64,000 nucleotides of DNA from an uncultured Thermoplasmata archaeon (GCA_964644565.1 CAZXWO010000005.1:3320-67319), one strand, 5' to 3'; shown: positions 15,952 to 60,259, counted from the first letter of the stretch. The notes: generated by a model not told the origin, from the sequence alone. A program made the numbers and translations.

Positions 15952-16968
15952 TCACTTGAGAGCTCCCTTGAGCTTGACATACTGGATGTAGTCGACGTAC
16001 TCCTTCCTCTCCAGCTGCGCCTTGAAGGTCAGCGCGGGCTTCCTGTCCGAGACGACCTTCAGGCTGATGGCGTCGCTCCCGGCGCCGGAGCCGTACGACA
16101 CGACCATGATCCTGTCGCCGGCTTTTGCCGCGTCCAGCGCCGCGGCGAGGCCCACGGTCGTCGAGGCCGCGCCCAGGTCCCCCAGGTTGACGGATACGAG
16201 CCCTGAGGCCAGCTGCGCATCGTTGAACATCAGTTTCCCAGCCACCGACGCAGGTGTCTTCGCGTCCGGCTGCTGGATGACCACATGGGCATACTCTTCC
16301 GGCTTCGCGCCCAGCTTCTTCATGAGCGCGCTGCAGGCCTTGGTCGTACACGCAGTGAAGGCCGCGGCGAAGAACTTCTTCACGTTAAGGTCCTGGAGCG
16401 ACTCGCCGCCCTGTGGCCTGAACCGCTCTCCGAAGTGCTCCATGACGAAGGACGCGCTCCCCTCGATCTCGGCGATCAAGTCCTCGGAGGAGATGACGAA
16501 CCCCGCGGCGCCGGCGCCCATCGCGTGCTCGAGCGGGTCCCACATGCTCGCCCTCGGTGCGTCAGCGGTGGCGACCACGGCGACGCCGCCCGGGCTTGCC
16601 TTGACGTGCTCGAAGCCGGATATGAGCGCCTCGGTCCCGGCCCTCGTCGAGGTCGTGTGGTCCGATGCGAAGACGGAGCTGGGCATGCCGACGTTGACTA
16701 TGACTGTCCCAGAAAGCATCTTCTCCATGTACGGCGCCGTGGTCGACGCGAGCGCGAACCTGGTGACCTTCGCGGGAGGCAGGGGGACCGACTCCAGTGC
16801 CCTCCTCGAGACCTTCGCGGATGCGGTCAGGACGTCCTCGTCGAAGCCCATGAGGGACTTCTCGCTGACGCCCGGCGCTTGGAAGGACCCCCACGCTTTC
16901 GCGTAGTCCTCCTTCTTTATCCTGAGCCTCGGTACATACGAGCTGTAACCGGATATTCCTGCGGCCAT
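15952..16968 (-). CDS. Hydroxymethylglutaryl-CoA synthase (archaeal type)
   Basis: MAAGISGYSSYVPRLRI...ALASTTAPY...SYGSGAGSDA. Position between thiolase and DUF35. The track ORF 15952..17886 is an out-of-frame upstream extension. Confidence 0.88.
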   Translation of the reverse strand: MAAGISGYSSYVPRLRIKKEDYAKAWGSFQAPGVSEKSLMGFDEDVLTASAKVSRRALESVPLPPAKVTRFALASTTAPYMEKMLSGTVIVNVGMPSSVFASDHTTSTRAGTEALISGFEHVKASPGGVAVVATADAPRASMWDPLEHAMGAGAAGFVISSEDLIAEIEGSASFVMEHFGERFRPQGGESLQDLNVKKFFAAAFTACTTKACSALMKKLGAKPEEYAHVVIQQPDAKTPASVAGKLMFNDAQLASGLVSVNLGDLGAASTTVGLAAALDAAKAGDRIMVVSYGSGAGSDAISLKVVSDRKPALTFKAQLERKEYVDYIQYVKLKGALK

Positions 16969-16973
16969 CCTGT

Positions 16974-18140
16974 TCACCTCACAAGGACCGAGACGGACAC
17001 TGTCCCTCCCGACCCACCTACGTTGTGGACGAGGCCCCTCTCGACCCCCTTGACCTGCCTCGTGGGTTTCTGCGCGGTGCCCCTCAGCTGGTTGAACATC
17101 TCGTAGGCCTGACCGGTCCCGGTGGAGCCGATCGGGTGACCCTTCGACTTGAGCCCACCGCTGACGTTGACGGGCTTGTCCCCGTCGATCTTGGTGTGCC
17201 CCTCCTCCATGAACTGGCCTGCCTTGCCCTTCTCGCAGAAGCCCAGGTCCTCGTAGGCCAGGAGTTCCGCGATGGTGAAGCAGTCGTGAACTTCGGCCAG
17301 CTGGATGTCCTTGGCGGTGAGTCCCGCCATCTTGTAGGCCTGCTGGGAAGCCCTCTTCGTGCCCTCCAGCGTGACCGTGTTGATCCTGTCGTGTATTGCC
17401 AGGTAGTCGCTCGACGTGCCGAAGCCCGCCACATAGACGGGGGTGTCGGTGTAATGCTTCGCGGTCTCCTCGTCGCACACGAGGAGGGCCGACGCGCCGT
17501 CCGTCGTCGAGCAGCAGTCGAACAGGTTGAGCGGATACGCGACGATTGGGGCCTTCATGGCCTGCTCCAGGGTGATCTCCCTCTGGAACTGCGCCTTCGG
17601 GTTCTGTGCGCCGTTCTTGTGGTTCTTGACCGCGACGGACGACAGGTGCTCCCTCTTCGTGCCGAACTCGTGCATGTGCCTGTGGGCGATGAGCGCGTAC
17701 AGGCCCGCGAAGGTCGTGCCCGCGAGCCTCTCGTACTCTGTGTCCCCGGAGACTCCGAGCCAGTACTTCTGCTTCATCCCCGAGACGTCGGTCATCTTCT
17801 CCACGCCGCCGGCGAGGGCCACCTTGTGGGTGCCCGACAGCACGTCCATGACGGCCGCCACCAGCGCGTACCCCCCTGAGGCGCACGCGTTCTCGATCCT
17901 CACGGTGTTGATGTACGGCAGGCCCACATACTCCGCGACCAGCGCGGACATGTTCCCGAGCTGGAACCCCCCGGAGCCGAGGTTGCCTATGTAGGCGGAC
18001 TCGATCTGCCTCGGGTCGAAGTTCTTGTCAACGCTCGAGCTCATGTCTTTGTAGGCCTCGAAGAACAGTTCCTTGATCCCTTTCTCGGGGAACTCGCCGT
18101 ACTTGCTCTGCCCCGCTCCGACTATCGCAACTCTCTTCAT
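16974..18140 (-). CDS. Acetyl-CoA acetyltransferase (archaeal thiolase)
   Basis: [15 protein letters not shown]...ENACASGG...HDCFTIAE...[16 protein letters not shown]...NVGGSG, the thiolase catalytic Cys/His pattern. Confidence 0.9.
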
Positions 18141-21053: not shown

Positions 21054-24000
21054 TCAGGGGGCCCCGTCCAACTTTCTAAGCTCTTCCTCCCTGGACTTGA
21101 GCACTTTGGCGAGGTCCGTCAGCTCCCCCTGGATCGACTGGAGCCTCGTCCACTCGTCCTCCAGGCGCTGCTCGTCCCTCCTGACCTCGCCCTCGCGGTC
21201 CGCCAGCCTCAGGTAGGCGTCGTCGAGCTCCCTCTTCCTCCGCTCGAGCTCCTCGAAGGTCTTGGCGTCCACCGCCGCTAGCCCGGCCTTGGACCCGTCG
21301 ACCTTCTCCCAGAGGTCCTGGACCTCCGCCCTCTCCTTCTCCATGCGGTCCATCTCGATGACGAGGGTCCTCTCCCGGGTCTCGATGTCGCGCTCCCTGT
21401 CCCTCAGGGCCTCCTCGAGCCCCCTGAGGTCGACCTCCCTGCGCGCGAGGTCGTCGCCCGTCGCGTCCGTCGTCCTGGGCGCGTTGTCCTTGACCGCCTT
21501 GGCGACCCTCTCACGGACCTCCTCCTCGAGCTCCTCGCGCCTCTTCATCAGCTCGTGCCGCCACTTCTCGAGCTCAGCCCTGAGCTGTTCGAGGCCGGCC
21601 TCCCTCTGCTGCACCGCGGACCTCTCCCTGTCCATCTCTATCTGCAGGAGCTCGAACTCCTCCAGGGACCTCTCCAGCTGGTCCGCACGCCTGTGCAGGT
21701 CCTCCTCCTTCGCCGCCAGCGCCGACTTCTCCTTGGCTATGTCGTCGAGGACGCCCTTGTACTCGCTTATCGACTGGTCGACGCCCTGCTCGCGCATGTT
21801 GACGGCCGTCTCCATGCTCGCCAGCCTCGCTCCCGTCGCCCGGAGCTCCTGCTCCTGCCTCGCGAGGTCGTCCTCCCTCGCCTTGAGCGCCGCGTCCCTC
21901 GCGGCCAGGGCGGCCTCCCTCTCCGAGGAGGTGCGGACGGCCGCGTCCACCTGGGCGTTGACCTCCTCCAGCTCCGCGGCCCGCGCCTCGAGGGCCTGCG
22001 CCTCCCTCTCCCTCTGGGCCCGGGCCTCCTCCTGCTGGGACCGGAACTCGGACTCCATGGTCGCGAAGGCCACCTCCCTGGCCTCCAACTCCTTGGACTT
22101 GTCTGTCAGCGCCGCCTCCCTCGACTCCAAGTCAGCGGCCCTCTTCTCCAGGGCGGCCCTCTCGGCCTCCGACGCCGCGGTCGCGGCCGCGTCTGCCGCC
22201 GCGACCTCCTTTTCCCAGGACGCGAGTTCGGCGTCCCGGGTAGCCGCCGCAGCCTCCTTCTCGATGAGGACCTTCATCCTGTCCTCGGCGGCCGCCTCCT
22301 CGTCGGCGAGCCTGCTCGACCTCGTCTCAAGGTCGAACTCCTTGGACTCGAGGGACTTCTCTGTGTCCTTGAGGGCGTCCCGCGCTGCGTCCAGCGACCT
22401 GCCCCTCTCCTCGAGGTCCCTCTTCAGCGTCTCGATGTCAGTACGGGCGGCGCCGAGCTCGGAGTGCGACCTCGCCACATCCATCTCGTGCGACTGCCTG
22501 TCCGCGGCGAACTCGGCCACGCTCCTCTCCAGCTGTGCCTTGTCCTCCATGAACCTCTCGGTGTCGGCCGCGTGCGCCTCCCGCTCCTCGGCGAGCGCCG
22601 CCCTGGCAGCCTCCAGCTCAGACCTGCTCGCCTCGAGGTCCGAGGCGGCCTCCGTCAGCTGCTCCCTCTGGGCGGCCAGCTCTCGCTCGAGCGCCGCCTG
22701 TCTCTCTGAATCCTGAGTTATGATCGTCTCCCTGCGGGAAAGGTCGTCGAACCTCGCCTCCGCCTCGGCGGCCCTCCTCTCCGCCTCCGCCAGCTTATCG
22801 GAGGCCTCCGCCCTCACCGACTCGAGCTCCCTCCTCGCAGACTCCAGCTCCGCCGACGTCTCCCGCAGCTCGGCCTCCTTGGAGTCCAGGGAGGCCGCGC
22901 GCTCCTCCGCCTCCTTCATGAGGCGCTCGACCTCAGCCCTCTGGGCGGCCGTCTCGCGCATCGACTCCTCGAGGGACTTGTGGGTCGTGTCGCGATGCAG
23001 GTCCACGTCGGCGCGGGCCTGCTCTATGCTCGCGCGGTCGGCCTCGAGCTGCGCCCGGGCATCCTCGAGCTCGGCCCTCGCCCCGTCGACCTGCCTCTCG
23101 GACTCCGCGATCCGCTGCTCGCGTTCGCTCACTTCCCGCTCCAGCGCGCCCATCTCGTCCTTGACGACGGCCAGGGCCGCCTCCTTCTCCGCGAGCTGCG
23201 CAGCCCTCCGCTCGAGCTCACCGTGCAGCGCCGCGCGCTCCGCCTGCGCGGCCTCGAGCTCGCCCCTGAGCTGCTTCTCCCGGGCCTCGACCTCCGGCTG
23301 GACCTTGAGCAGGTCGTCCTCCCTGGCCTTCAGGGCGGCCTCCCTGGAGCCCAGGCCCGAGGCGATCTCGTCAAGCTCCGCCTTCCACGAGTCGAGCTCG
23401 GACTGCATGGACGCGAGCTCTTCGGACCTCGAGTCCAGGCGCGCCCTCTCCTCCTGCATGGCCTTGGTGACGGACGCCAGGTCGCTCTTCTCCCTCTCGA
23501 CCCTGGAGAGCTCCGCCTCGCTACGGATCAGCTGTTCCTTCATGAGCCTCTCGCGCTCGTCGAGGGTCGACTTGGTCTGCTGCAGCATCTCGGCCGTCGA
23601 CCTGAGGTTCTCCTCCTTGAGCGCCAGGTCGTCCTCTATGGACTTGAACTCCTCCGCGCGCTTGTTCAGCTCGCGCCGCGACTGGTCGAGCTCCACCCTC
23701 TCCTCGGCCATCCTCAGCTCCTGGGCCGCGACGTCGCTCGACCTCTGGTCGAGGATGGTCTTCATCTCCTCGGCCGCGTAGTACTTCTCCTCGGCCTCCC
23801 TGCGGTCCTCGTCGGCCTTCTCCAGCTTCTCCTTGAGGCCGGCCTCCGCCTCGGACAGGCGCCTCTCGGTGTCGGCGCGCGTGTTCTCGAACTCGATGCG
23901 CTGCTGTTCGAGCGCGTTCCTCTCGAGCGTGAGCTTCTCCTTGGTGTCGTCGACCTCCCGTCTGAAGGCCTCCGTCTCCTCGGCGAGTCTGGCCGTCATC

Positions 24001-25865
24001 TCCTCCGCGGCCTTCTTCGAGGCCCTCAGCTCCGCGGAGAGGGCCTTCTGCTCCTCCTCCCTGCGGTCGAGCTCCTCCTTGAGCTCGGTCAGGCTCGCGC
24101 TCCTCTCCTTGAGCTGTATCTCGAAGTCAGTGAGGGACTTCCGCCTCGCCTCGCCCTCCTTTGAGAACCTGTCCTCGTCGGAGCGGAGCTTCTCCTCCCG
24201 CTTCTGGACCTCGGCGGCCTTCTGGGTGGTCTCGGCCCTGAGGCGCTCCACCTCGTCGAAGAGCTTCTTGCGCTCCTCCTCGAGGAGGGACTCCTTCCTG
24301 GTCGCCGACTCCTCGGCGTGGGAGGCCTTCTCCATGAGCTGCCTCGCCTCCTCCTCGTGGGCCGCGATCTCCTTCTCCCATACGGAGGACTCCTCGAGCC
24401 TCGTCGCGAGCTTCTGCTCCCTGTCGGCGAGTATCTGCTCCTGCCCCATGAGCTTGGACCTCAGGGTCTCGATCTCGCGCGTGAGGCGGGACACCGACTC
24501 CTCCCTCTGCGCGACCTCGGATGCCGCGCGCTGCGCCTCGGCCCTCACGCCAGCGACCTCCTGCTCCTGCTCCTTCTTCAGCCGCTCGAGCTCCTGCAGC
24601 CCGGAGTCTATCGAGGCGCGCTCCTTCTCGAACTCGACGTTCTGGAGCGCGAGGGCCTGTTCCTTCTCCTGGATGGCCTTCTCCTTCCTGCTGGCCTCGG
24701 AGGCGGCCTCCTGGACCTTCGACTCCTTCTCCTGGATGACGGCCAAGCGCTCGTCCACGGACCTCCTGTCCGCCTCGAGCCGGGCCGAGAGCTCGAGGAG
24801 CTTCGCCCGCTCCGCGTCGAGCTTCTTCGCCTCGCCCTGCAGCTCCATCGTCCTCTGCTCGGTCTTGAGGCTCACCACCTTGTCCAGCTGCAGGTACCTC
24901 GATTCTATCTCCTTCTCCATGGTCAGCAGGTTCGCCTTCTTGGTCTCGAAGGACTGCATCTCCTTGGAGAGCCGTGCCCTGACTTTGGAGGTGAGGTCCG
25001 CCTCGTCCTTCGTGAGCTTGATCCTGAAGTCCTCCAGCTCCTTCCTGGTCTGCCTGACCTTGAGGAGGGTCTGCCGGACCTCCTGCCTCTCCTTCTCCAG
25101 GGTCGCCCGCTCCGAGTCGAGCGCAGCCCTGTCGGCATCGAGCTTCGCCTTCAGGCCCACCAGGCGCGACCTCTCGTCCTGGACCTTCTCCGCCTCGATC
25201 ATGGCCTCGTCGCGCTTCAGTTCCACCATTAGCTTGCTCTCGATGTCCTGGGTCTCCGGGAGGGGCTTCGCCTCCTCCAGGGAGTAGACCTCGAGCTCCC
25301 TCTCCACGGGCCCGAGCTTGGACGGCTCGAGGGTGGATGACTTGAGGGACACGATGCAGACGGCCTTCTGGACGGCCACCAGGTCGCGCAGCGCCTGCAA
25401 CAGGCGCATGACGCTGACGAACTTGTTGTTGGTGATGAGGTACTCGAGGGAGTCTATGAGGACCAGGTTGCCCCCGCCCTCCTCCAGGAACCTCTTTATG
25501 GTGAGGTTGAGCCGTTCGAGGTCCTTCGGGCCCACGGCCTCGTCGCTCATCGCGTTCGTGAGCCACAGGACGGGCACCTCCTTGAGGTTGAAGGCCTTCC
25601 GGAGGTTCTTGGGGTAGGTCCTCGAGACTATCATCCCGCGCTTGCCCTCGGACAGCTCGCTGAGGAACAGGGAATAGGCGATCTCGGGCCTCTCCTCCTC
25701 CACGAGGTAGGTCACGGACGGCTCGAGGCGCTTCACGCCCTCGGCACGCCTGGCAGGCTCTGCCTCTGGCTGCTCCTCCGCGTCGGCGGGTGTCTCCTGA
25801 GGCTGCTCGACAGGAGGCTCCTCGGGCTTGACGCTGCTCTCTCTAGCCTTGTCTCTGAGTCCCAT
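21054..25865 (-). CDS. Giant (1,603 aa) coiled-coil protein with an N-terminal DUF835-like, P-loop-less KaiC/RecA-like domain
   Basis: Single uninterrupted ORF. Residues about 50-200 (GMIVSRTYP..VPVLWLT..NLVLIDSLEYLI..CIVSL) are followed by about 1,400 aa of E/A/R/L/K/D heptad-like sequence nearly free of Pro/Gly. Own AT-rich promoter at 25933-25960. Confidence 0.85.
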   Translation of the reverse strand: MGLRDKARESSVKPEEPPVEQPQETPADAEEQPEAEPARRAEGVKRLEPSVTYLVEEERPEIAYSLFLSELSEGKRGMIVSRTYPKNLRKAFNLKEVPVLWLTNAMSDEAVGPKDLERLNLTIKRFLEEGGGNLVLIDSLEYLITNNKFVSVMRLLQALRDLVAVQKAVCIVSLKSSTLEPSKLGPVERELEVYSLEEAKPLPETQDIESKLMVELKRDEAMIEAEKVQDERSRLVGLKAKLDADRAALDSERATLEKERQEVRQTLLKVRQTRKELEDFRIKLTKDEADLTSKVRARLSKEMQSFETKKANLLTMEKEIESRYLQLDKVVSLKTEQRTMELQGEAKKLDAERAKLLELSARLEADRRSVDERLAVIQEKESKVQEAASEASRKEKAIQEKEQALALQNVEFEKERASIDSGLQELERLKKEQEQEVAGVRAEAQRAASEVAQREESVSRLTREIETLRSKLMGQEQILADREQKLATRLEESSVWEKEIAAHEEEARQLMEKASHAEESATRKESLLEEERKKLFDEVERLRAETTQKAAEVQKREEKLRSDEDRFSKEGEARRKSLTDFEIQLKERSASLTELKEELDRREEEQKALSAELRASKKAAEEMTARLAEETEAFRREVDDTKEKLTLERNALEQQRIEFENTRADTERRLSEAEAGLKEKLEKADEDRREAEEKYYAAEEMKTILDQRSSDVAAQELRMAEERVELDQSRRELNKRAEEFKSIEDDLALKEENLRSTAEMLQQTKSTLDERERLMKEQLIRSEAELSRVEREKSDLASVTKAMQEERARLDSRSEELASMQSELDSWKAELDEIASGLGSREAALKAREDDLLKVQPEVEAREKQLRGELEAAQAERAALHGELERRAAQLAEKEAALAVVKDEMGALEREVSEREQRIAESERQVDGARAELEDARAQLEADRASIEQARADVDLHRDTTHKSLEESMRETAAQRAEVERLMKEAEERAASLDSKEAELRETSAELESARRELESVRAEASDKLAEAERRAAEAEARFDDLSRRETIITQDSERQAALERELAAQREQLTEAASDLEASRSELEAARAALAEEREAHAADTERFMEDKAQLERSVAEFAADRQSHEMDVARSHSELGAARTDIETLKRDLEERGRSLDAARDALKDTEKSLESKEFDLETRSSRLADEEAAAEDRMKVLIEKEAAAATRDAELASWEKEVAAADAAATAASEAERAALEKRAADLESREAALTDKSKELEAREVAFATMESEFRSQQEEARAQREREAQALEARAAELEEVNAQVDAAVRTSSEREAALAARDAALKAREDDLARQEQELRATGARLASMETAVNMREQGVDQSISEYKGVLDDIAKEKSALAAKEEDLHRRADQLERSLEEFELLQIEMDRERSAVQQREAGLEQLRAELEKWRHELMKRREELEEEVRERVAKAVKDNAPRTTDATGDDLARREVDLRGLEEALRDRERDIETRERTLVIEMDRMEKERAEVQDLWEKVDGSKAGLAAVDAKTFEELERRKRELDDAYLRLADREGEVRRDEQRLEDEWTRLQSIQGELTDLAKVLKSREEELRKLDGAP

Positions 25866-25932
25866 GGTAGCTGAGCTCCGTACTCGTACCGTGGCATCTT
25901 CGGGGGAGTAGATGCTGAAGGGTGTTGCTCTG

Positions 25933-25960
25933 GTAATATATCCGATTATACATTAAATGC
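25933..25960 (-). promoter_or_regulatory. AT-rich promoter region (TTTAATGTATAAT / GATATATTACC) of the giant coiled-coil gene
   Basis: Only AT-rich stretch in the 99-nt gap between the zinc-ribbon gene stop (25965) and the giant gene ATG (25865). Confidence 0.45.
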
Positions 25961-25964
25961 TTCT

Positions 25965-27113
25965 CTAAATCCTCAGGCGGTCTAGGACACGCTCGTAGAG
26001 CTTGAAGTCAGGCGTCCTCGAGAACCTCTCCACGACCTCCGGCGGCAGCTGCCCAAGGAGCCCGTCGAGAGTTTTCAGGAGCGTCCTCACCTCCTCCTCG
26101 CCCTCCTCCAGCTGGGATACCCTCTGCTCCAGCTCCGAACGGGCGGATGCGAGCGTCCTTGCATGTGCCTCCAGCGACGACAGGCACGCCTCGGCGTCGT
26201 CGCAGGCCCCCTCCGGGGAGAGCACCTCGTGCACCGAGCGGATCCTGCGCGCGAGGTCCTTCGCGCGGTCATCCGTCTCCGGAGCCGGGCCCGCCTGCCC
26301 CTCCGCCTTGGTAGGGGCGGCCGCCTCCGCAGCCTCTAGCTCCTTCTTCTTCTGGGCGTACGCCTTGATCTTGCGGTCTACCATCTCCTCGCGCTTCCGG
26401 ACCCGTTCCTCGCGCTCTGCCAGCGCCTCCTCCGCGGTGCCCCCCGAGCCTCCGGCCGGGCCCGGGACCTCGAGCGACAGACCCCTGTCCCCCGCCAGTT
26501 TCGCGGGCCCGGGCATGGAGAACACGCTCCTGACCTCTTCCGACAGGGACCTCGCGCGGGAGAGCAGCTCATGCAGCCTGCCGAGGTCCTCCGACGCGCT
26601 CCTCAGCTCCGACTCCAGGTCGTCGACCGGGAGGAAGGGGGGCTCGGCCGACGCGATCTTCGAGGTGCGAGCCCGCGACTCCGGGAGGCTACTCCCCATG
26701 GAGGCGGCCACCTCCTCCCTGAGGTCCGCCAGCTCTGAGAGGTGCCTCGCGAGCGCGGAGAGCGCCTCCGACTCGTCCGTGGTGAGGGGGGGGACCTGTG
26801 CGGGTGGCTGGGCCTCATCCGGGCGGGGCGTCCCCTTGGGGGCCCTCCCCCAGTCGATCAACCTGGAGAGAATCTTCTCGTCCTCCTCGGCGTTGGCCGG
26901 CCTGACCGCCTTGACCTTGAACTTCATGGTGCACTTTGGGCACTCGGGGGTGCCCAGCTCAATCACCTTGCCGCACCTCGGGCAGCGGAAGGCCCTGACC
27001 TCGCTCTCGAGCTGGGAGTAGCACGACTCGCACCTGGTCGCCGCGGCGTCCACGGCGGCCCCGCAGCTCATGCAGAAGGCCTCTCCTGTCTTGGTCGTTC
27101 CCTTGGTCGGCAA
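25965..27113 (-). CDS. Double zinc-ribbon protein with acidic/coiled-coil C-terminal region (hypothetical)
   Basis: Two CxxC...CxxC ribbons (CMSCG..CESC; CPRCG..CPKC), then disordered P/E/A-rich and helical segments, ending LPPEVVERFSRTPDFKLYERVLDRLRI. Confidence 0.7.
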   Translation of the reverse strand: MPTKGTTKTGEAFCMSCGAAVDAAATRCESCYSQLESEVRAFRCPRCGKVIELGTPECPKCTMKFKVKAVRPANAEEDEKILSRLIDWGRAPKGTPRPDEAQPPAQVPPLTTDESEALSALARHLSELADLREEVAASMGSSLPESRARTSKIASAEPPFLPVDDLESELRSASEDLGRLHELLSRARSLSEEVRSVFSMPGPAKLAGDRGLSLEVPGPAGGSGGTAEEALAEREERVRKREEMVDRKIKAYAQKKKELEAAEAAAPTKAEGQAGPAPETDDRAKDLARRIRSVHEVLSPEGACDDAEACLSSLEAHARTLASARSELEQRVSQLEEGEEEVRTLLKTLDGLLGQLPPEVVERFSRTPDFKLYERVLDRLRI

Positions 27114-29989: not shown

Positions 29990-30823
29990 TCACCTGAAGT
30001 CGGAAGGCATCGTGTCGAACATCTTCAGGACCGACTTGCCGAGCTTCCTCCCGGCGTCGACCGATATGCCCGACTTGGTGATCCTGAGGGCCCTCGGCTG
30101 CGTGTCGTGGGCGGAGCCCCTGAACTTCTCCACCGACACGAACCTCTCCGTCCTCGAGGAGACCATGAACTTGTGGAACTTCACTATGCCCCTGGACAGG
30201 AAGAGCTCGGGCTCGACGGCGGTCGGCTCGGGCAGGTCCGTCACGATGAGGCTCGTGAGGTTGGCCTCGGAGAGGAACCTCAGGAGGGAGAGCACGCCGC
30301 CGTCTATGTCCTCCTCGCCCCCCGAGAGCCGTTTCAGGGAGGTGAGCGAGTCGATGACGAGCCTCGAGTACTTGACCTCCCTGAGCTCCTGCCTCAGCAT
30401 CAGCTGCAGGGACTGCGGCGTCAGGTCCGGGGCCATCTGTTTCATCGACTCGGTCTTCGCGTCGGCGCGCGCCTGGCGCAAGGAACCGACGGCCCTCTGG
30501 GCCGCGACCTCCACCAAGGAGACGCGCCTGCTGTACGCCTTCGCGGCCGGGTGGACGTCCAGTATCCGTATCTTCCCCACGTCCCACCCCAGGAACCTGA
30601 CGTTCTCCCTCAGCTCGGCGGGGGGCTCGTCTATGGCGACGAACAGGGCCCGCTCGCCCTGCCTGACCCCCTGTTGCAGGAACTGGATGCAGAACGTCGT
30701 CTTGCCGCTCCCGAACGGACCCTGGACGACGTACGGCCTGCCTGGTATGAGTCCTCCGTGGAGCATCTTGTCGACGCCCTCTATCCCCGTGGACACCCTG
30801 AGCTCTGGGGCGACGGACGTCAC
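29990..30823 (-). CDS. Single-domain KaiC-like / RecA-superfamily ATPase
   Basis: STGIEGVDKMLHGGLIPGRPYVVQGPFGSGKTTF (Walker A), RLVIDSLTSL (Walker B), VEKFRGSAHD..R.L.IT..GISV. Confidence 0.88.
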   Translation of the reverse strand: MTSVAPELRVSTGIEGVDKMLHGGLIPGRPYVVQGPFGSGKTTFCIQFLQQGVRQGERALFVAIDEPPAELRENVRFLGWDVGKIRILDVHPAAKAYSRRVSLVEVAAQRAVGSLRQARADAKTESMKQMAPDLTPQSLQLMLRQELREVKYSRLVIDSLTSLKRLSGGEEDIDGGVLSLLRFLSEANLTSLIVTDLPEPTAVEPELFLSRGIVKFHKFMVSSRTERFVSVEKFRGSAHDTQPRALRITKSGISVDAGRKLGKSVLKMFDTMPSDFR

Positions 30824-31788
30824 CGGTCGTCGCCTCCTGGGCCGTCGTCCTCCGGGGGCGGTGGCTCCGGCGCGGACGTCGCGTCCTGCGGCCCCGCAGT
30901 CCCCCCGTCCCGCGCCTCGGTCACGGGCTCTTCGGGACCCTCCTCAGACGCCCTCGGCTCACCGCGCCGCTTCGGGGCGGCCAGCTTCACGGACAGGCCC
31001 TCGTCCGTTATCTTCAGAGGCCTCATCGAGTGGTCGTGGTACGACCCCCTGAACTTCTCGACGGTCACGCCCCTGACCAGACCCCTCCCGTCGAGCCACT
31101 TGTGGAGCCTGATCTCGCCCCTCGCCATGTGTGACTCCGCGTCGGGCCTGGGTGCCTCTGGGAGCTGCACGGTGAGCAGCGTCGTGATGCCGAGGTCGGA
31201 GAGGAGCCTGAAGAACGACTGGAGGGCCATGTACTCCTCGCTAGTGCGTATGTAGAACCTCCTGAGCGATGTTACAGAATCGACCACGACCCGGGAGTAC
31301 TTCCTGACCTTCATCTCCTGCTTGAGTATCTCCTGTATCGTGTTGATGGTGATGTCCGCTGGTCCCTTCTCCGAGGTCAGTCGGATGTTCGGCGGGACCG
31401 AGCCGAACCGCACGACCCTCCTCTCCGTGGACACGTCCCTCACGGGGGTCTTGTCGTAGCTCTGGATATCGGAGGTGGCGTCGAAAACGTGCACTGCGGA
31501 GATGTTCCACCCGAACGACCTCATGTTCACCTGGACCTCGTTCGGGGGCTCGTCGATGGCAACATACATGACCTCCTCGCCGGCCGCGGCCCCCTCTAGG
31601 AGGAACCTCATCGCCAGTGCCGTCTTGCCCGTCCCGGACGCGCCGGAGACCACGTACGGCCTGCCTGGTATGAGTCCCCCGTCGAGCATGTTGTCGATGC
31701 CGGGTATCCCGACCTTAACCTTCTCTCGTATCATCCAGTGCCTCGAACCCGTAGAACAGATGGCCTCTGTGTTCTGGAGATTATCCAT
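30820..31788 (-). CDS. Single-domain KaiC-like / RecA-superfamily ATPase with a disordered acidic/Pro-rich C-terminal tail
   Basis: VGIPGIDNMLDGGLIPGRPYVVSGASGTGKTAL, RVVVDSVTSL, VEKFRGSYHD. The 4-nt overlap with the downstream paralog implies coupling. The alternative start at 31734 (MIREKVKVGIPG) gives a more typical N-terminus. Confidence 0.85.
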   Translation of the reverse strand: MDNLQNTEAICSTGSRHWMIREKVKVGIPGIDNMLDGGLIPGRPYVVSGASGTGKTALAMRFLLEGAAAGEEVMYVAIDEPPNEVQVNMRSFGWNISAVHVFDATSDIQSYDKTPVRDVSTERRVVRFGSVPPNIRLTSEKGPADITINTIQEILKQEMKVRKYSRVVVDSVTSLRRFYIRTSEEYMALQSFFRLLSDLGITTLLTVQLPEAPRPDAESHMARGEIRLHKWLDGRGLVRGVTVEKFRGSYHDHSMRPLKITDEGLSVKLAAPKRRGEPRASEEGPEEPVTEARDGGTAGPQDATSAPEPPPPEDDGPGGDDR

Positions 31789-35577: not shown

Positions 35578-38205
35578 TTGATCTCAGTGCTCCTGGTTGA
35601 CGACGAGCCCGCGCTTCTTGACCTCGCCAAGTTCTTCCTCGAGAAGTCAGAGGGCATCGCCACGGTCCCTGCCTCCAGCGCCAGGGAGGCGGTCCAGCTG
35701 ATGGGCCAGCAGGAGTTCGACGCGGTCGTCTGCGACTACCAGATGCCCGAGATGGACGGCCTCGAGTTCCTGAAGGTGCTCCGCAACCAGAAGAACGACA
35801 TCCCGTTCGTGCTGTTCACGGGGAGGGGGCGGGAGGACGTCGCGATAGAGGCGCTGAACTCCGGCGCCGACTTCTACCTCCAGAAGGGAGGCGACCCCAA
35901 CTCTCAGTTCGCCGAGCTGACCCACATGATCAGGTCCGCCGTGGCCGCCATGCGCTCCGAGAGGGAGCTCGCCAGGAGCGAGCGGCGCTTCAGGCTCCTT
36001 GCGGAGAACTCGGAGGACATGGTCTTCAGGTACGACCTGCTCCCGGAGCCCCACTTCGAGTACGTCTCCCCCTCGGCGACGAGGATAATCGGGTACACGC
36101 CGGAGGAGCACTACGCCAACCCCAGGCTCGGGATGGAGATCGTCCACGCGGAGGACAGGCACCTGCTCGAGGGGCTCATGGAAGGCACGCTCGAACCGTC
36201 CAAGCCGCTTATCGTCCGGTGGACCACGAAGGACGGCAGGCTGATCTGGACGGAGCAGAGGCTCGTCCCCATAAGGGACACTGACGGTTCGGTCGTCGCC
36301 ATCGAGGGGACGGCGATAGACATAACCGAGAGGGTCAAGGCCGAGCAGGAGCTGCGAAGGTCCGAGGCCGAGTACAGGAAGCTCGTGATGACGGTGCCCT
36401 CCCTGATATGCCGGATGGCCCCGGACGGCACGACCCTGTTCGTCAACCAGCACGTGGAGGAGGTGACCGGGTACTCCCCGGACGAGATCCTTGGCCGCAG
36501 CTGGTGGGACGTGTTCTTCCCCGGCGAACTGAGGGCGCAGGTGGACGCCCTGATGGAGGACTTCCGGGAGGGGGACGTGTACGGGAGGGAGATGACCCTC
36601 ATCGACAAATCCGGTTCCCCGAGGACGCTCCTCTGGAGCTCGTTCAACACCAGGGCCGAGGGCGGCACCACGCTCGTGGAGATCAACTGCGCCGGGGTGG
36701 ACGTCACCGCGAGGAAGGCCGCCGAGAACGCGCTCAGGGAGAGCGGCGCGTTCAACCGGGCGGTCCTGGACTCCCTGGACGCCAACATCGCCGTCCTGGA
36801 CGGGACCGGGAGGATCGTCGCTGTCAACAGGAGCTGGCTCGTCTTCGCAGGGGTCAACGACGCGGACCTCGCGAAGGTCGGGGTCGGCTCCAACTACCTC
36901 GCCGTGTGCGACCGCGCTGCGGTCGAGGGGGACGAGGCATCCGCGCGCGTCGCGGGGGCGATCCGAGAGGTCCTGGCAGGAAGGAGGACCTCCTTCTCGC
37001 TCGAGTACCCGTGCGACTCCCCGGCGATCAAGAGGTGGTTCGCCCTCGAGGTCACCCCGCTCCCCAAGAGGCGCGGGGGCGCCGTCGTGTCGCACATGGA
37101 CATCACAGCCCGGAGGGCCGTGGAGGAGGCACTCAGGGCGAGCGAGGCGCGCTACAGGTCGATATTCGAGACCACCGGGACCGCCATGGCCATAATCGAC
37201 GAGGACGGCACCATGGCCCTGGTCAACACCGAGTTCGAGAAGCTGTCCGGCTACTCCAAGGCAGAGGTCGAGGGGAGGATGAAGTGGACCTCGTTCCTCG
37301 AGGCCGACGACGTCACCGCGCTGGCGGAGTACCACGAGGCGAGCCTGAGGGACCCCGGCAGCGCGTCGTCGTCCTTCCAGATCAGGGCCAGGGACAGGTT
37401 CGGTTCTGAGAAGGCCGGCCTGGCGAACGCCGCCGTCGTCCCGGGCACGAAGGACACGATAGTCTCCATCCTCGATGAGACCGACAGGAGGAGGTACGAG
37501 GACGCGGTGCAGCAGGCGGGCAAGAAGCTGGACCTCCTCGCGAGGATCACGAGGCACGACATACTGAACCAGTTAGCTATCCTGTACGGCTACCTCGAGC
37601 TCGCCAACGAGCGCACCAAGGACAGGGACATACTCCCCCTCCTGGACAAGGCCAGGACCGCGAGCGAGTCCATCAAGAGGCACCTCGAGTTCGCCAGGGA
37701 CTACCAGAACATGGGCACGAAGCGCCCCCAGTGGATAGACGTCCAGGCGGCCTGCAAGAGGGCGGCCTCGAACACCGAGCTCAGGGGCGTCAAGGTCGTT
37801 ACGGAGCTGGGGGACCTGGAGATATTCTCCGACCAGATGCTCGAGAAGGTGTTCTACAACCTCATAGATAACTCGATCAAGCACGGCCAGAGGACGAAGG
37901 GCATCTCCTTCAGGTACTCCGTCGGACGGGACGGGCTGCGCCTAGTCTACCAGGACGACGGCGTCGGGGTCCCCGACTCGGACAAGGCGGCGATATTCGA
38001 CAGGAGCGTCGCAGACGGGGACGGGCGGAGGGGGTACGGCCTCTACCTAGCGAGGGAGATCCTCGGCATAACGGGCATAGCCCTCACCGAGACCGGTGTC
38101 TACGGGGAAGGGGCGAGGTTCGAGATGCTAGTCCCGAGGGGGAAGTACAGGACCAAGCGGGAAGCGGAAAGGCGCAGGGTCGGCAGGAAGCCGCACAGGA
38201 AGTGA
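35578..38205 (+). CDS. Hybrid signal-transduction protein: receiver domain + multiple PAS domains + histidine kinase
   Basis: N-terminal MISVLLVDDEP...DYQMPEMDG...F.LFTG.G receiver. Repeated PAS-like blocks (RFRLLAENSEDMVFRY; YRKLVMTVPSLICR; YRSIFETTGTAMAI). H-box ITRHDILNQL and HATPase_c motifs (NLIDNSIKHG, DDGVGVP, GYGLYLAREI). TTG start. Confidence 0.9.
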   Translation: MISVLLVDDEPALLDLAKFFLEKSEGIATVPASSAREAVQLMGQQEFDAVVCDYQMPEMDGLEFLKVLRNQKNDIPFVLFTGRGREDVAIEALNSGADFYLQKGGDPNSQFAELTHMIRSAVAAMRSERELARSERRFRLLAENSEDMVFRYDLLPEPHFEYVSPSATRIIGYTPEEHYANPRLGMEIVHAEDRHLLEGLMEGTLEPSKPLIVRWTTKDGRLIWTEQRLVPIRDTDGSVVAIEGTAIDITERVKAEQELRRSEAEYRKLVMTVPSLICRMAPDGTTLFVNQHVEEVTGYSPDEILGRSWWDVFFPGELRAQVDALMEDFREGDVYGREMTLIDKSGSPRTLLWSSFNTRAEGGTTLVEINCAGVDVTARKAAENALRESGAFNRAVLDSLDANIAVLDGTGRIVAVNRSWLVFAGVNDADLAKVGVGSNYLAVCDRAAVEGDEASARVAGAIREVLAGRRTSFSLEYPCDSPAIKRWFALEVTPLPKRRGGAVVSHMDITARRAVEEALRASEARYRSIFETTGTAMAIIDEDGTMALVNTEFEKLSGYSKAEVEGRMKWTSFLEADDVTALAEYHEASLRDPGSASSSFQIRARDRFGSEKAGLANAAVVPGTKDTIVSILDETDRRRYEDAVQQAGKKLDLLARITRHDILNQLAILYGYLELANERTKDRDILPLLDKARTASESIKRHLEFARDYQNMGTKRPQWIDVQAACKRAASNTELRGVKVVTELGDLEIFSDQMLEKVFYNLIDNSIKHGQRTKGISFRYSVGRDGLRLVYQDDGVGVPDSDKAAIFDRSVADGDGRRGYGLYLAREILGITGIALTETGVYGEGARFEMLVPRGKYRTKREAERRRVGRKPHRK

Positions 38206-60066: not shown

Positions 60067-60150
60067 CTGAGCGGTTCCATGCACCTGAGGTTAGATATTC
60101 CCTTCGCAAGGCACCGGCCCCCCATCATCACTCATGAGAGCAGAGACGAC

Positions 60151-60163
60151 ATATTTTTATATG
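60151..60163 (+). promoter_or_regulatory. TATA box (ATATTTTTATATG) for the MCP-cheW-cheY-cheB operon
   Basis: Strongest AT-rich element in the window. It predicts a TSS near 60184, which excludes the track start codons at 60134 and 60161. Confidence 0.55.
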
Positions 60164-60259
60164 AACCAACCCAATTTTGACCTCCATGCGAGAGCGCATC
60201 CGTCCAGCAGAGGCTCCGGACGGGGGCGTCTCTCGCCCGCGCGTCGAACGGGTGATCGT

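What the first reader, a model, noticed from the sequence alone, without database searches (positions are those of the whole stretch)
21054..25865. 1,603-aa coiled-coil giant with a degenerate KaiC/RecA-like (DUF835-type) head
Seen in sequence:
- One uninterrupted minus-strand ORF of 4,812 nt.
- After an acidic Pro-rich leader comes an alpha/beta domain of about 150 aa: KRGMIVSRTYP, VPVLWLT, NLVLIDSLEYLI, CIVSL.
- Its LVLIDSLEYL strand lines up with the Walker-B strands RLVIDSLTSL and RVVVDSVTSL of the two KaiC-like ATPases at 29990-31788. No GxxGxGKT P-loop is present.
- I recognise the domain as DUF835-like, from memory and not searched.
- The remaining 1,400 aa or so are almost pure E/A/R/L/K/D heptad-type sequence with very few Pro or Gly.
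- The decapeptide AALKAREDDL occurs twice, 482 codons apart (DNA 21864-21893 and 23310-23340), with different synonymous codons. That points to an ancient internal duplication, not an assembly repeat.
Inference:
- At about 0.15 nm rise per residue, a continuous coiled coil of this length would be a rod on the order of 200 nm. That is comparable to the cell dimensions of small archaea.
- I am not aware of a described archaeal family with this architecture. It could be a cytoskeletal, tethering or ruler element whose inactive ATPase-like head docks onto active KaiC-like hexamers.
Basis: partly seen in the sequence, partly recalled or inferred. Interest (0 to 1): 0.8.

Follow-up and report, generated by a model that had tools for sequence, protein, structure and literature searches.

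The report
Giant archaeal coiled-coil rod, dead-KaiC head
This is a real, conserved 1,600-residue protein of uncultured Thermoplasmata archaea, made of a small ATPase-like head that has lost its ATP-binding loop and a roughly 200-nm coiled-coil rod whose length is conserved, most likely a structural tether or cytoskeletal element of a kind not yet described in archaea.

Summary
The minus-strand ORF 21054-25865 encodes 1,603 aa. Residues 47-195 are a DUF835 domain (Pfam 107 bits, cut-off 33). Its AlphaFold model matches KaiC-like/RecA-fold structures (PH0284, FlaH, KaiC, RecA) but has no P-loop. The remaining ~1,400 aa show strong heptad periodicity (z about 26) with only 3 prolines.

It is not an artefact. 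33 Thermoplasmata species carry a collinear ortholog, 24 of them full length (1,602-1,762 aa). The head is always 149 aa and 69-92% identical. Rod sequence is only 38-57% identical, yet rod length is held within a CV of 3.6%, and indels are mostly multiples of 7.

New anatomy:
- an invariant N-terminal peptide MGLRDKARE on a variable acidic linker
- a conserved, uniquely basic neck (241-360)
- a ~400-aa variable spacer
- a conserved three-helix tail
- the gene's own conserved promoter
- a zinc-ribbon/helical protein gene always ~100 nt upstream

Not supported: the "ancient internal duplication". The decapeptide repeat is absent from orthologs and there is no extended self-similarity. Untested: docking onto the KaiC pair, because the whole 20-kb block is syntenic.

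It is not SMC/Rad50: no ABC head, hinge or hook, and indels sit on one side only. I read it as a non-enzymatic parallel coiled-coil tether or scaffold. The architecture is new; the function is inferred.

The parts
21054..25865 (-). Complete gene, 1,603 aa plus stop
   Evidence: ORF listing and translation. Collinear orthologs in 33 species, 24 of them full length at 1,602-1,762 aa.
25836..25865 (-). Invariant N-terminal peptide MGLRDKARES (residues 1-10)
   Evidence: MGLRD[KR]A[RK][ED] in all 25 full-length sequences and in the database fragments. Disordered in the AF2 model.
25728..25835 (-). Acidic, Pro-rich disordered linker (residues 11-46)
   Evidence: pLDDT below 50. Length varies 44-141 aa among orthologs, CV 51%. 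Net charge about -10.
25281..25727 (-). DUF835 / inactivated KaiC-like alpha/beta head (residues 47-195)
   Evidence: Pfam PF05763 at 107.3 bits. AF2 core pLDDT about 90. Foldseek top hits are PH0284, FlaH, KaiC, RecA and RadA, E from 2e-5, prob 1.00. Exactly 149 aa in all orthologs and 69-92% identical. No P-loop.
25233..25280 (-). Short disordered hinge between head and rod (residues 196-211)
   Evidence: pLDDT below 50 for 198-209. Conserved Pro/Gly at about 203-206.
21486..25232 (-). Heptad coiled-coil rod (residues 212-1460)
   Evidence: Period 3.5 power z=25.6. Heptad signal along nearly the whole length. About 12 register breaks with uninterrupted runs up to 277 aa; breaks near 297, 333, 536, 869, 940 and 1448 are conserved in 16-25 of 25 orthologs. 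One Pro (857) within this span.
24786..25145 (-). Conserved, net-basic 'neck' of the rod (residues 241-360)
   Evidence: Column conservation 0.70-0.86, close to that of the head. It is the only rod stretch with positive net charge, +0.4 to +2.3 per 40 aa against -1.3 to -5.6 elsewhere. AF2 predicts a single helix at pLDDT 95-98.
21861..23048 (-). Variable spacer zone of the rod (residues 940-1335)
   Evidence: Almost all indels of 5 aa or more among the 24 orthologs fall at 942-1332, the rest within 857-1463. Most are 7, 14, 21 or 28 aa. Conservation is 0.28-0.46.
21057..21668 (-). Conserved C-terminal tail (residues 1400-1603)
   Evidence: Conservation 0.6-0.75. Invariant G1424, G1528 and W1519; W1435 is nearly invariant. 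AF2 gives helices ending at 1460, then 1470-1531 and 1534-1600, with breaks between them and pTM 0.30. No PDB sequence or fold match. Found only in this family.
23310..23339 (-). Decapeptide AALKAREDDL, copy 1 (residues 843-852)
   Evidence: Not conserved in orthologs.
21864..21893 (-). Decapeptide AALKAREDDL, copy 2 (residues 1325-1334)
   Evidence: Not conserved in orthologs.
25866..25964 (-). Intergenic promoter and 5' leader of the giant gene: TATA-like boxes (about 25933-25958), C-run (25902-25906), GGAG ribosome-binding site (25876-25879)
   Evidence: Sequence. TTTAATGTATA..ATATATTAC, the CCCCC run and GGAGC are conserved in most of 28 orthologous upstream regions; the intergenic length is 88-114 nt in nearly all loci.
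25965..27071 (-). Upstream partner candidate: double zinc-ribbon plus helical protein (about 368 aa from MSCG)
   Evidence: DZR and zinc-ribbon Pfam hits just below threshold, four CxxC pairs. Present directly upstream in every locus that extends that far. Conserved REExVDRKIKAY..KK.EL and C-terminal LLK.LD.LLG.LP motifs.

Best explanation
The gene encodes a non-enzymatic structural protein.

How it is built:
- Two chains (inferred) wind in parallel and in register into a coiled-coil rod of about 1,400 residues, roughly 200 nm long.
- At one end sit the DUF835 heads. These are stripped-down KaiC/RecA-fold domains whose P-loop is deleted and whose catalytic acidic residues are replaced, so they cannot bind or hydrolyse ATP in the canonical way. 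They act as protein-protein docking modules.
- A flexible acidic linker carries an invariant 9-residue N-terminal peptide, which would be a second docking motif.
- The basic neck next to the head and the conserved three-helix tail at the far end are further attachment sites.

What it does: the protein works as a long-range tether, scaffold or cytoskeletal strut. It spans a fixed distance between whatever the head end and the tail end bind, probably together with the zinc-ribbon/helical protein encoded immediately upstream.

Shown here: the domain identities, the fold, the loss of the P-loop, the heptad rod, conservation of length, the positions of conserved and variable zones, and the conserved gene pair and promoter.

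Inferred: the oligomer state, the parallel orientation, the partners and the cellular role.
For: - The gene is real and under selection: 24 full-length collinear orthologs in different species, with a conserved promoter and RBS.
- Head: DUF835 at 107 bits. Confident alpha/beta model with KaiC-like/RecA-fold top hits. No Walker A. In the structure-consistent alignment a 4-residue gap replaces GSGK, and RTYP replaces the KaiC 'DEPP' acidic pair.
- The head is 69-92% identical against 38-57% for the rod, as expected for a binding surface.
- DUF835 is a promiscuous module. It is fused to REC/PAS sensors, to tRNA synthetases and to helical-repeat membrane proteins, which is typical of an interaction or adaptor domain.
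- Rod: heptad power z about 26 and a continuous signal. Heptad runs reach 277 aa and some breaks are positionally conserved.
- 17 of 38 indel blocks of 5 aa or more are multiples of 7, against about 14% expected.
- Rod length has a CV of 3.6% while the N-terminal linker has 51%.
- Against a fold-back: no conserved mid-rod Gly/Pro hinge, no Cys hook, and all length changes lie at 857-1463 with none at 212-850.
- Core positions contain 8-15% Arg and 4-7.5% Lys. Two-stranded coiled coils tolerate this best (general coiled-coil knowledge).
- Precedents: KaiC-like FlaH/ArlH docks on another ATPase ring (structure 4yds is among the top hits; the function is my own knowledge). The SMC-like coiled-coil protein Sph3 and its conserved small neighbour RdfA determine cell shape in Haloferax (PMC10869688).
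Against: - There is no experimental or expression data for any family member.
- Oligomer state and strand orientation were not modelled, because only monomer predictions were available.
- No long-range charge periodicity of the myosin or intermediate-filament type was found, so there is no positive sign of regular lateral assembly.
- No partner is identified. The synteny is clade-wide and therefore uninformative, except for the invariable zinc-ribbon neighbour, which itself sits inside the same syntenic block.
- The hydrophobic core is relatively weak: about 64% (a) and 46% (d) hydrophobic residues, or about 70% and 52% counting Ala. Parts of the rod could therefore be single helices or dynamic.
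- The sequence-level link between DUF835 and KaiC is not significant here.
Confidence: 0.45

Rival explanations
1. It is a self-assembling filament former, an archaeal counterpart of bacterial coiled-coil-rich or intermediate-filament-like proteins (crescentin, FilP, Scy) or of the Mycoplasma terminal-organelle protein HMW2. Dimers would pack laterally and end to end into a cytoskeletal cable or lattice, with the head and tail domains mediating the longitudinal contacts.
For: - Tripartite head-rod-tail layout, with both ends conserved and a variable middle.
- Positionally conserved heptad discontinuities, as in intermediate-filament rods.
- The protein is very acidic except for a basic neck that could pair with acidic parts of neighbouring rods.
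- Wall-less Mollicutes use giant coiled-coil proteins such as HMW2 (mentioned in PMC1322226), and some Thermoplasmata are wall-less (own knowledge).
- A weak compositional hit to the Mycoplasma helix-rich family TIGR04523, 50 bits against a cut-off of 270.
Against: - No charge periodicity beyond the heptad scale. Peaks near 13 aa are barely above the null, with z of about 6-10 against a null maximum of about 6.5.
- A net charge of -102 on the rod disfavours lateral packing without counter-ions or partners.
- The cell-wall status of this clade is unknown.
- There is no sequence homology to any known filament former.
Confidence: 0.22
2. It is a signalling scaffold in the archaeal KaiC network. 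The dead-KaiC head inserts into or caps hexamers of the active KaiC-like ATPases (29990-31788 or paralogs), and the rod spaces or clusters these hubs.
For: - DUF835 is an output domain of archaeal response regulators and is classed as inactivated KaiC (PMC5847659).
- The fold matches KaiC-like hexameric ATPases.
- Two intact KaiC-like genes are conserved 4 kb upstream on the same strand in every locus that reaches that far.
- A KaiC (KaiC-RS) whose C-terminal coiled coil joins two hexamers has been solved; 8fwi and 8db3 are among the hits.
Against: - The KaiC pair is separated from the giant by five genes, including one on the opposite strand, and the giant has its own promoter.
- The whole block, including SAM synthetase, thiolase and HMG-CoA synthase, is equally syntenic, so nothing points specifically to KaiC.
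- A 1,400-aa rod with conserved length is far more than a signalling adaptor needs.
- The one other DUF835 neighbourhood I could inspect had no KaiC gene.
- No contact was modelled.
Confidence: 0.15
3. It is an SMC/Rad50-like chromosome organiser. The chain would fold back on itself into an antiparallel coiled coil, bringing the N-terminal head and the C-terminal tail together, and would bridge or loop DNA. The zinc-ribbon neighbour and the basic neck would serve as DNA-binding parts.
For: - The weak best NCBIfam hits are SMC, ASRP and Rad50, and JetC in PADLOC.
- Both ends of the rod are conserved and would be juxtaposed by a fold-back about residue ~907.
- The neck is basic.
- A zinc-ribbon gene is adjacent.
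Against: - All of those hits cover only coiled-coil arm regions and are far below the cut-offs: 65 against 567, 46 against 300, and about 20 against 700-1000.
- There is no ABC ATPase N- or C-terminal half and no Walker A.
- The protein has a single Cys, so there is no zinc hook.
- There is no conserved hinge or mid-rod Gly/Pro cluster.
- Indels are confined to 857-1463 without compensating changes in 212-850, which is incompatible with two matched arms.
- Conservation is asymmetric about the midpoint.
Confidence: 0.08
4. It is an artefact: a mis-assembled or non-coding long ORF produced by high GC content and low-complexity repeats.
For: - High GC content yields long shadow ORFs; 484-aa ORFs lie on the opposite strand inside the gene.
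- All copies in the big protein databases are fragments.
Against: - 24 independent full-length orthologs from different assemblies, including long contigs and closed chromosomes.
- Position-specific conservation.
- Heptad-phase-preserving indels.
- No DNA tandem repeat beyond 2-3 copies of 21 nt.
- A conserved promoter and RBS.
Confidence: 0.01

Closest known systems
DUF835 (Pfam PF05763), 'iKaiC' output domains of archaeal sensor and response-regulator proteins (Galperin et al. 2018, PMC5847659; Makarova et al. 2017, cited there)
   Same: The head is a bona fide member. It scores 107 bits and carries the family's conserved residues R82, P85, W101-L102, P113, D138, E141-Y142, N147, F149 and D161.
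   Different: In most of the 150 best representatives the domain is C-terminal, behind REC/PAS/GAF or other modules. Here it is N-terminal and is followed by a 1,400-aa coiled coil. That architecture was not found in the literature searched.
Single-domain KaiC-like/RecA-superfamily ATPases of archaea: PH0284 (2dr3) and FlaH/ArlH (4yds)
   Same: Best structural matches to the head model: E 2e-5, prob 1.00, target TM about 0.5 over about 160 columns. The strand order is the same, and LVLID occupies the Walker-B strand in the alignment.
   Different: About 150 aa instead of about 230. The P-loop is deleted and the catalytic acidic pair replaced. There is no PF06745 hit, and sequence-profile similarity to the local KaiC proteins is not significant.
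SMC, Rad50 and archaea-specific SMC-related proteins (ASRP, Sph1-4, Arcadin-4)
   Same: These are the longest prokaryotic coiled coils known (PMC1322226). Sph3 with its conserved neighbour RdfA has a cytoskeleton-like role in cell shape (PMC10869688), which is analogous to the giant plus zinc-ribbon gene pair.
   Different: No ABC ATPase head, no hinge and no zinc hook. Scores are far below the family cut-offs. Indels are one-sided, which argues against a fold-back. The rod is about twice as long as the two SMC arms together would appear.
Bacterial coiled-coil-rich or intermediate-filament-like proteins (crescentin, FilP, Scy) and Mycoplasma HMW2
   Same: Head-rod-tail layout, a very long heptad rod with conserved discontinuities, and no enzymatic domain.
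   Different: No sequence relationship. The head is a KaiC-fold domain, which none of those have. No long-range charge repeat was detected. Filament formation is untested.
KaiC-RS of Rhodobacter sphaeroides, with a C-terminal coiled coil (8fwi, 8db3)
   Same: A KaiC-fold domain directly followed by a coiled coil that mediates higher-order assembly. It appears among the fold hits.
   Different: KaiC-RS is an active double-domain ATPase with a short coiled coil (per the entry titles and my own knowledge). Here there is one dead domain and a rod of about 1,400 aa.
P0124/P0128-type proteins found here (N-terminal DUF835, about ten ~100-aa helical repeats, a TM helix and an extracellular domain)
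   Same: An N-terminal DUF835 followed by more than 1,000 aa of helical sequence.
   Different: Their helical part consists of discrete repeats with a 'W..GF.V..LE' motif and they are membrane-anchored. The giant has no hydrophobic segment (maximum Kyte-Doolittle 19-residue mean of 1.3) and no such repeats.

Membership tests
DUF835 (PF05763) | Score above Pfam's gathering threshold over the whole domain | tested here: met
   107.3 bits against 33.1; profile positions 11-136 of 136.
DUF835 (PF05763) | Family-wide conserved residues (R..P, WL, P, D[GS].EYL...N.F, D) | tested here: met
   All are present in the head when aligned with 168 diverse DUF835 domains; S139 replaces the usual G.
KaiC/RecA-superfamily ATPase | RecA-type alpha/beta core fold | tested here: met
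   AF2 model with core pLDDT about 90. Foldseek top 50 are all RecA-superfamily proteins: PH0284, FlaH, KaiC, RecA, RadA/Rad51, DnaB.
KaiC/RecA-superfamily ATPase | Walker A P-loop G.{4}GK[ST] | tested here: not met
   Absent from the head of all 34 sequences. In the alignment a 4-residue gap replaces GSGK.
KaiC/RecA-superfamily ATPase | Walker B strand with an acidic residue, plus catalytic Glu | tested here: inconclusive
   LVLID138 aligns with RLVID of KaiC_A, but RTYP replaces the 'DEPP' acidic pair. The alignment itself is not significant, with probability 0.5-3%.
KaiC/RecA-superfamily ATPase | Significant match to KaiC (PF06745) or RecA sequence profiles | tested here: not met
   No such hit at E<=0.01. 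hhalign against a 38-sequence local KaiC profile gave E 0.014-0.11.
SMC / Rad50 / MukB-type proteins | Split ABC ATPase head (N-terminal Walker A, C-terminal signature and Walker B) | tested here: not met
   No ATPase-domain match. TIGR02168 scores 65 against 567 and covers only arm positions 688-983. Rad50 models score about 20 against 700-1000.
SMC / Rad50 / MukB-type proteins | Central hinge domain or CxxC zinc hook, with two matched antiparallel arms | tested here: not met
   One Cys in the whole protein, and it lies in the head. No conserved mid-rod Gly/Pro cluster. Indels occur only at 857-1463.
Archaea-specific SMC-related proteins (NF045487 ASRP) | Score above NCBIfam cut-off | tested here: not met
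   46.4 bits against 300.
Two-stranded heptad coiled coil (structural class) | 3.5-residue hydrophobic periodicity sustained over long stretches, with few helix breakers | tested here: met
   z=25.6 at period 3.5. 58% of windows lie above the 95th percentile of shuffles, and 54-81% in orthologs. Heptad runs reach 277 aa. 3 Pro in 1,398 aa.
Two-stranded heptad coiled coil (structural class) | Dimeric, parallel, in-register association | not testable with these tools
   Only monomer structure prediction was available. The inference rests on Arg/Lys in core positions and one-sided indels.
Intermediate-filament-like / coiled-coil-rich filament proteins | Self-assembly into filaments; long-range charge periodicity supporting staggered packing | tested here: inconclusive
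   No convincing period beyond about 7 aa. Assembly itself cannot be tested computationally here.
Anti-phage defence systems (PADLOC) | Match to a defence-system protein model | tested here: not met
   Only weak coiled-coil hits to JetC at 20-24 bits.

The most novel reading that the evidence does not exclude
The family would be a new class of archaeal cell-scale structural element. A rod of about 200 nm with fixed length would plug its dead-KaiC heads into rings of active KaiC-like ATPases or other DUF835 proteins. This would physically couple the KaiC-type signalling and timing hubs of archaea to cell architecture, for example by setting a distance between membrane, chromosome or division or motility machinery. 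The zinc-ribbon protein and the invariant N-terminal peptide would be the other attachment points.
Probability: 0.12. Interest if true: 0.85.

Novelty: new variant of a known kind. Interest (0 to 1): 0.58.

Why it matters
Long coiled coils in prokaryotes are almost all SMC, Rad50 or MukB arms (PMC1322226), and the archaeal cytoskeleton beyond tubulin and actin homologs and ESCRT is poorly known.

- This family shows that a whole clade of uncultured soil, sediment and groundwater Thermoplasmata maintains a 1,400-residue heptad rod. Its length is conserved better than its sequence.
- The rod is capped by an inactivated KaiC-fold domain. That links two topics which have been studied separately: the unexplained expansion of KaiC-like and 'iKaiC' domains in archaea, and archaeal cell organisation.
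- It gives DUF835 a concrete, testable role as a docking module on a structural protein.
- It is also a practical warning. Every copy in the large protein databases is a fragment carrying a misleading automatic name (ZipA, SbcCD, CwlO-like, chromosome segregation ATPase).

Tried and rejected
- **Full-length homolog search**: swamped by low-complexity candidates and returned only one unrelated PAS-DUF835 protein. Head-only and tail-only queries worked.
- **Exact-sequence look-up** of the window protein: not on record.
- **PDB sequence searches** of head and tail: only a designed repeat protein and noise.
- **Fold search of the tail model:** no match.
- **Internal duplication:** self-BLAST with and without composition correction gave no off-diagonal hit, and the motif is not conserved in orthologs. 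Rejected.
- **L018 as a natural experiment for broken synteny:** the record is made of ~5-kb pieces joined by 100-N runs, so it is uninformative.
- **Long-range charge periodicity** (myosin 28-aa type or intermediate-filament type): nothing clearly above the block-shuffle null.
- **Defence-system models:** only coiled-coil noise.
- **RNA structure in the conserved 5' leader** (C-run pairing with the RBS or start codon): RNAalifold found 3 invariant pairs, energy about 0 and no covariation, so it cannot be tested.
- **Neighbourhood of one other DUF835 protein (P0021):** no KaiC gene, a single uninformative data point.
- **Makarova et al. 2017** (the iKaiC source paper) is not held in the library. 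What I say about it comes from Galperin 2018 and from memory.
- **My first script for the zinc-ribbon orthologs** picked the wrong ORFs. It was redone from tblastn coordinates.


Full report

Yes.
- The ORF listing gives one minus-strand ORF, 21054..25865, with an ATG start and 1,603 aa.
- At 65% GC, a stop-free run of 1,603 codons has a chance of about e^-40 (my calculation).
- Tandem Repeats Finder sees only 2-3 copies of 21-nt (7-codon) units and no long DNA repeat that could cause mis-assembly.

**2. The head.**

- Pfam scores residues 67-191 as DUF835 (PF05763) at E=7e-31 and 107.3 bits, against a gathering score of 33.1. It is the only domain above threshold.
- An AlphaFold2 model built on 21 family sequences has mean pLDDT 81, about 90 in the core. 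It shows a disordered N-terminus (1-45), a beta-alpha-beta domain (strands 51-56, 77-81, 99-101, 134-137, 169-174 and 192-194), a disordered hinge (198-209) and one unbroken helix from 212 to 351.
- Foldseek against the PDB returns only RecA-superfamily proteins at the top. These are the archaeal KaiC-like PH0284 (2dr3), FlaH/ArlH (4yds), KaiC, RecA, RadA/Rad51 and DnaB, with E from 2e-5, probability 1.00 and target-normalised TM about 0.5 over about 160 columns.
- No G.{4}GK[ST] motif occurs in the head of any family member.
- In profile-profile alignments with the two neighbouring KaiC-like proteins, a 4-residue gap falls exactly where their P-loop GSGK lies. 'SRTYP' faces their acidic 'IDEPP', and 'LVLIDSLE' lies on their Walker-B strand 'RLVIDSLTSL'.
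- Those alignments are not significant, however (probability 0.5-3%). The KaiC relationship is supported by structure, not by sequence statistics.
- The literature already calls DUF835 'iKaiC', an inactivated KaiC-like domain used as an output module of archaeal response regulators in Methanomicrobia and Thermoplasmata (PMC5847659).
- The head carries all the residues that are conserved across 168 diverse DUF835 domains: R82, P85, W101, P113, D138, E141, Y142, N147, F149 and D161.

**3. The rod.**

- Residues 206-1603 are 19.5% E, 15.1% A, 12.0% R, 10.9% L, 6.9% K and 6.7% D. They hold 3 Pro and 26 Gly and carry a net charge of -102.
- Hydrophobic residues show a 3.52-residue period, at z=25.8 against shuffles, plus the 7/3 harmonic.
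- 58% of 42-aa windows exceed the 95th percentile of shuffles and 99% exceed the median. In orthologs the first figure is 54-81%.
- A penalised dynamic-programming register assignment finds about 12 breaks, with uninterrupted heptad runs of up to 277 residues. Breaks near 297, 333, 536, 869, 940 and 1448 recur in 16-25 of 25 orthologs.
- Core positions are Leu-rich but contain 8-15% Arg, which is typical of long two-stranded coiled coils (inference).
- So the refutation criterion 'only short interrupted segments' is not met.

**4. It is a conserved family, not an artefact.**

- The head finds 20 database proteins at 56-82% identity. All are fragments of 121-340 aa from short metagenomic contigs. 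The tail finds 11 more C-terminal fragments.
- A scan of one genome per GTDB species returned 33 loci, all labelled Thermoplasmata, Thermoplasmatota or a broader euryarchaeal name.
- 24 of these carry a complete collinear ORF of 1,602-1,762 aa. The others run off contig ends.
- The head is exactly 149 aa in all and 69-92% identical to the window's. The rod is only 38-57% identical.
- Rod length is nevertheless 1,398-1,567 aa (CV 3.6%; 20 of 25 lie within 1,398-1,443). The N-terminal linker varies from 44 to 141 aa, a CV of 51%.
- Of 38 alignment gap blocks of 5 aa or more, 17 are multiples of 7, and 6 more are 11 or 18 aa.
- All indels of 5 aa or more lie between window residues 857 and 1463, almost all at 942-1332. 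None lie in 212-850.

**5.

- **N-terminal peptide.** MGLRD[KR]A[RK]E is invariant, and it is followed by the disordered acidic Pro-rich linker.
- **Neck.** Residues about 241-360 are nearly as conserved as the head (0.70-0.86) and are the only net-basic part of the rod.
- **Variable spacer.** This covers about 940-1335.
- **Tail.** Residues 1400-1603 are conserved, with invariant G1424, G1528 and W1519 and nearly invariant W1435. AF2 predicts three helices separated by breaks at 1461-1469 and 1532-1533, with pTM 0.30, so it is extended rather than a compact domain. There is no PDB match by sequence or fold.
- **Promoter and leader.** The 99-nt intergenic region upstream carries TATA-like boxes, a C-run and a GGAG site. 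These are conserved in most of 28 orthologous upstream regions, and the intergenic length is 88-114 nt in nearly all loci.
- **Upstream neighbour.** The gene directly upstream always encodes a double zinc-ribbon plus helical protein. It evolves about as fast as the rod, at 30-63% identity.

**6. Context.**

- The gene order is KaiC_B, KaiC_A, C45-family acyltransferase, an unknown gene, an opposite-strand unknown gene, nitroreductase, the zinc-ribbon gene and the giant. On the other side lie SAM synthetase, lysine 2,3-aminomutase, thiolase and HMG-CoA synthase.
- This order is the same in every locus that extends far enough. The adjacency of the KaiC pair therefore says nothing specific.
- The one apparent exception, L018, is an assembly of ~5-kb pieces joined by 100-N runs.
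- The window holds no other DUF835 gene and only these two KaiC genes.

**7. DUF835 elsewhere.**

- An exhaustive profile search found 2,415 proteins at E<=1e-3.
- In most of the best 150 the domain is C-terminal.
- Outside the family, several of the best-scoring domains (E 1e-51 to 1e-42) sit at the end of 1,400-2,300-aa class-I tRNA-synthetase fusions, three of which also carry HhH motifs.
- Two representatives have an N-terminal DUF835 followed by ~100-aa helical repeats, a TM helix and an extracellular domain.
- DUF835 is thus a promiscuous module, which is most easily understood as an interaction domain (inference).
- No representative outside the MGLRD clade combines it with a giant heptad rod.

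**8. What it is not.**

- **SMC, Rad50 or ASRP.** Hits cover only arm regions and are far below the cut-offs: 65 against 567, 46 against 300, and about 20 against 700-1000. There is no ABC head, the single Cys rules out a zinc hook, there is no hinge, and the one-sided indels argue against two matched antiparallel arms.
- **A defence protein**.
- **A single-alpha-helix domain,** given the hydrophobic heptad signal.

**9. The decapeptide.**

- AALKAREDDL does occur twice (843 and 1325), with 5 synonymous differences. It is longer than any repeat in 300 shuffles, where the maximum was 8.
- Self-BLAST finds no extended similarity, however. Neither site keeps the motif even in the closest ortholog, which has RETDLDSREAEL and RDAALRAREGDM.
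- Both sites simply fit the generic [KR][ED]xxLxx[KR]Exx[LI] heptad pattern.
- I therefore reject 'ancient internal duplication'. Local conversion or convergence within this lineage remains possible.

**10. Mechanism.**

Best-supported reading (confidence 0.45):
- It is a non-catalytic structural rod, most likely a parallel two-stranded coiled coil of about 200 nm.
- The iKaiC heads, N-terminal peptide, basic neck and conserved tail are attachment sites.
- The variable acidic middle acts as a spacer whose length, not sequence, is under selection.

Rivals:
- A self-assembling filament (0.22). No long-range charge period was found.
- A KaiC-network scaffold (0.15). This is untested.
- An SMC-like fold-back (0.08).
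- An artefact (0.01).

Functional precedents:
- KaiC-like FlaH/ArlH docking on the ArlI ring (own knowledge; the structure is among the hits).
- KaiC-RS, whose C-terminal coiled coil joins hexamers (entries 8fwi and 8db3).
- Sph3 with its conserved neighbour RdfA in Haloferax cell shape (PMC10869688).
- The giant coiled-coil HMW2 of wall-less Mycoplasma (mentioned in PMC1322226).

**11. Novelty and score.**

- The domain and the 'iKaiC' idea are known, and long coiled-coil structural proteins are a known kind. The combination is what I found no description of: a clade-wide family with conserved length, its own N-terminal motif, neck and tail, and a fixed zinc-ribbon partner gene.
- I rate it a new variant of a known kind, with interest 0.58. 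It is a solid and unusual architecture, but the function is wholly inferred and the hosts are uncultured.

Noticed in passing
proteins P0025, P0028, P0031, P0033 (from; not in the window): Among the DUF835 domains closest to this family's head are ones at the C-terminus of 1,400-2,300-aa fusions. These fusions join a class-I (IleRS-like) tRNA synthetase (tRNA-synt_1, Anticodon_1, DUF5915) to DUF835, with HhH motifs detected in three of the four. This is an odd and apparently undescribed architecture.
   Followed up: partly
proteins P0124, P0128 (from; not in the window): A second kind of 'N-terminal DUF835 plus long helical region' protein. It has about ten ~100-aa helical repeats with a W..GF.V..LE motif, then a TM helix and an extracellular domain.
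   Followed up: partly
window 25866-25964: The conserved 5' region of the giant gene has two TATA-like boxes, an invariant C-run about 37-41 nt upstream of the ATG and an invariant GGAG. The C-run could pair with the RBS or with the GGG after the start codon, but both elements are invariant, so covariation cannot test this.
   Followed up: partly
window 25965-27071: The zinc-ribbon protein has four CxxC pairs, a Pro-rich linker, a strongly conserved REExVDRKIKAY..KK.EL helix and a conserved C-terminal LLK.LD.LLG.LP...YE motif. It has no TM segment. It diverges as fast as the giant's rod.
   Followed up: partly
window 21262-22716 (+), 23833-25287 (+), 22980-24164 (+) and others: Long shadow ORFs of up to 484 aa lie on the opposite strand inside the giant gene. 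They are by-products of its GAG/CTC-rich, high-GC coding strand and could be mis-called as genes.
   Followed up: no
database fragments P0016, P0166, P0171, P0172, P0176: Every copy of this family in the large protein collections is a fragment. Several carry misleading automatic names: ZipA, CwlO-like hydrolase, chromosome segregation ATPase, SbcCD subunit and DUF3084.
   Followed up: yes
L018 (CP070736.1, labelled 'chromosome'): The stretch fetched contains 100-N runs about every 5 kb (positions 235, 4847, 9529, 14654 and 20056), so local gene order there cannot be trusted.
   Followed up: yes
window 15952-17886 (-) and 16974-18140 (-): The 644-aa ORF is an over-extension. Only residues 308-643 match HMG-CoA synthase, and its 5' part overlaps the thiolase gene in another frame. 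This is the usual archaeal thiolase plus HMG-CoA synthase pair.
   Followed up: partly
window 51282-52748 (+): An uninterrupted MttB-family (trimethylamine methyltransferase-like) gene in a non-methanogenic-looking Thermoplasmata context. It is presumably a non-pyrrolysine MttB homolog.
   Followed up: no
window 35578-38205 (+) and 60134-62245 (+): A REC-PAS(x4)-HATPase hybrid sensor kinase and a HAMP-MCP chemoreceptor are present. The organism therefore has two-component and chemotaxis signalling, and probably motility.
   Followed up: no
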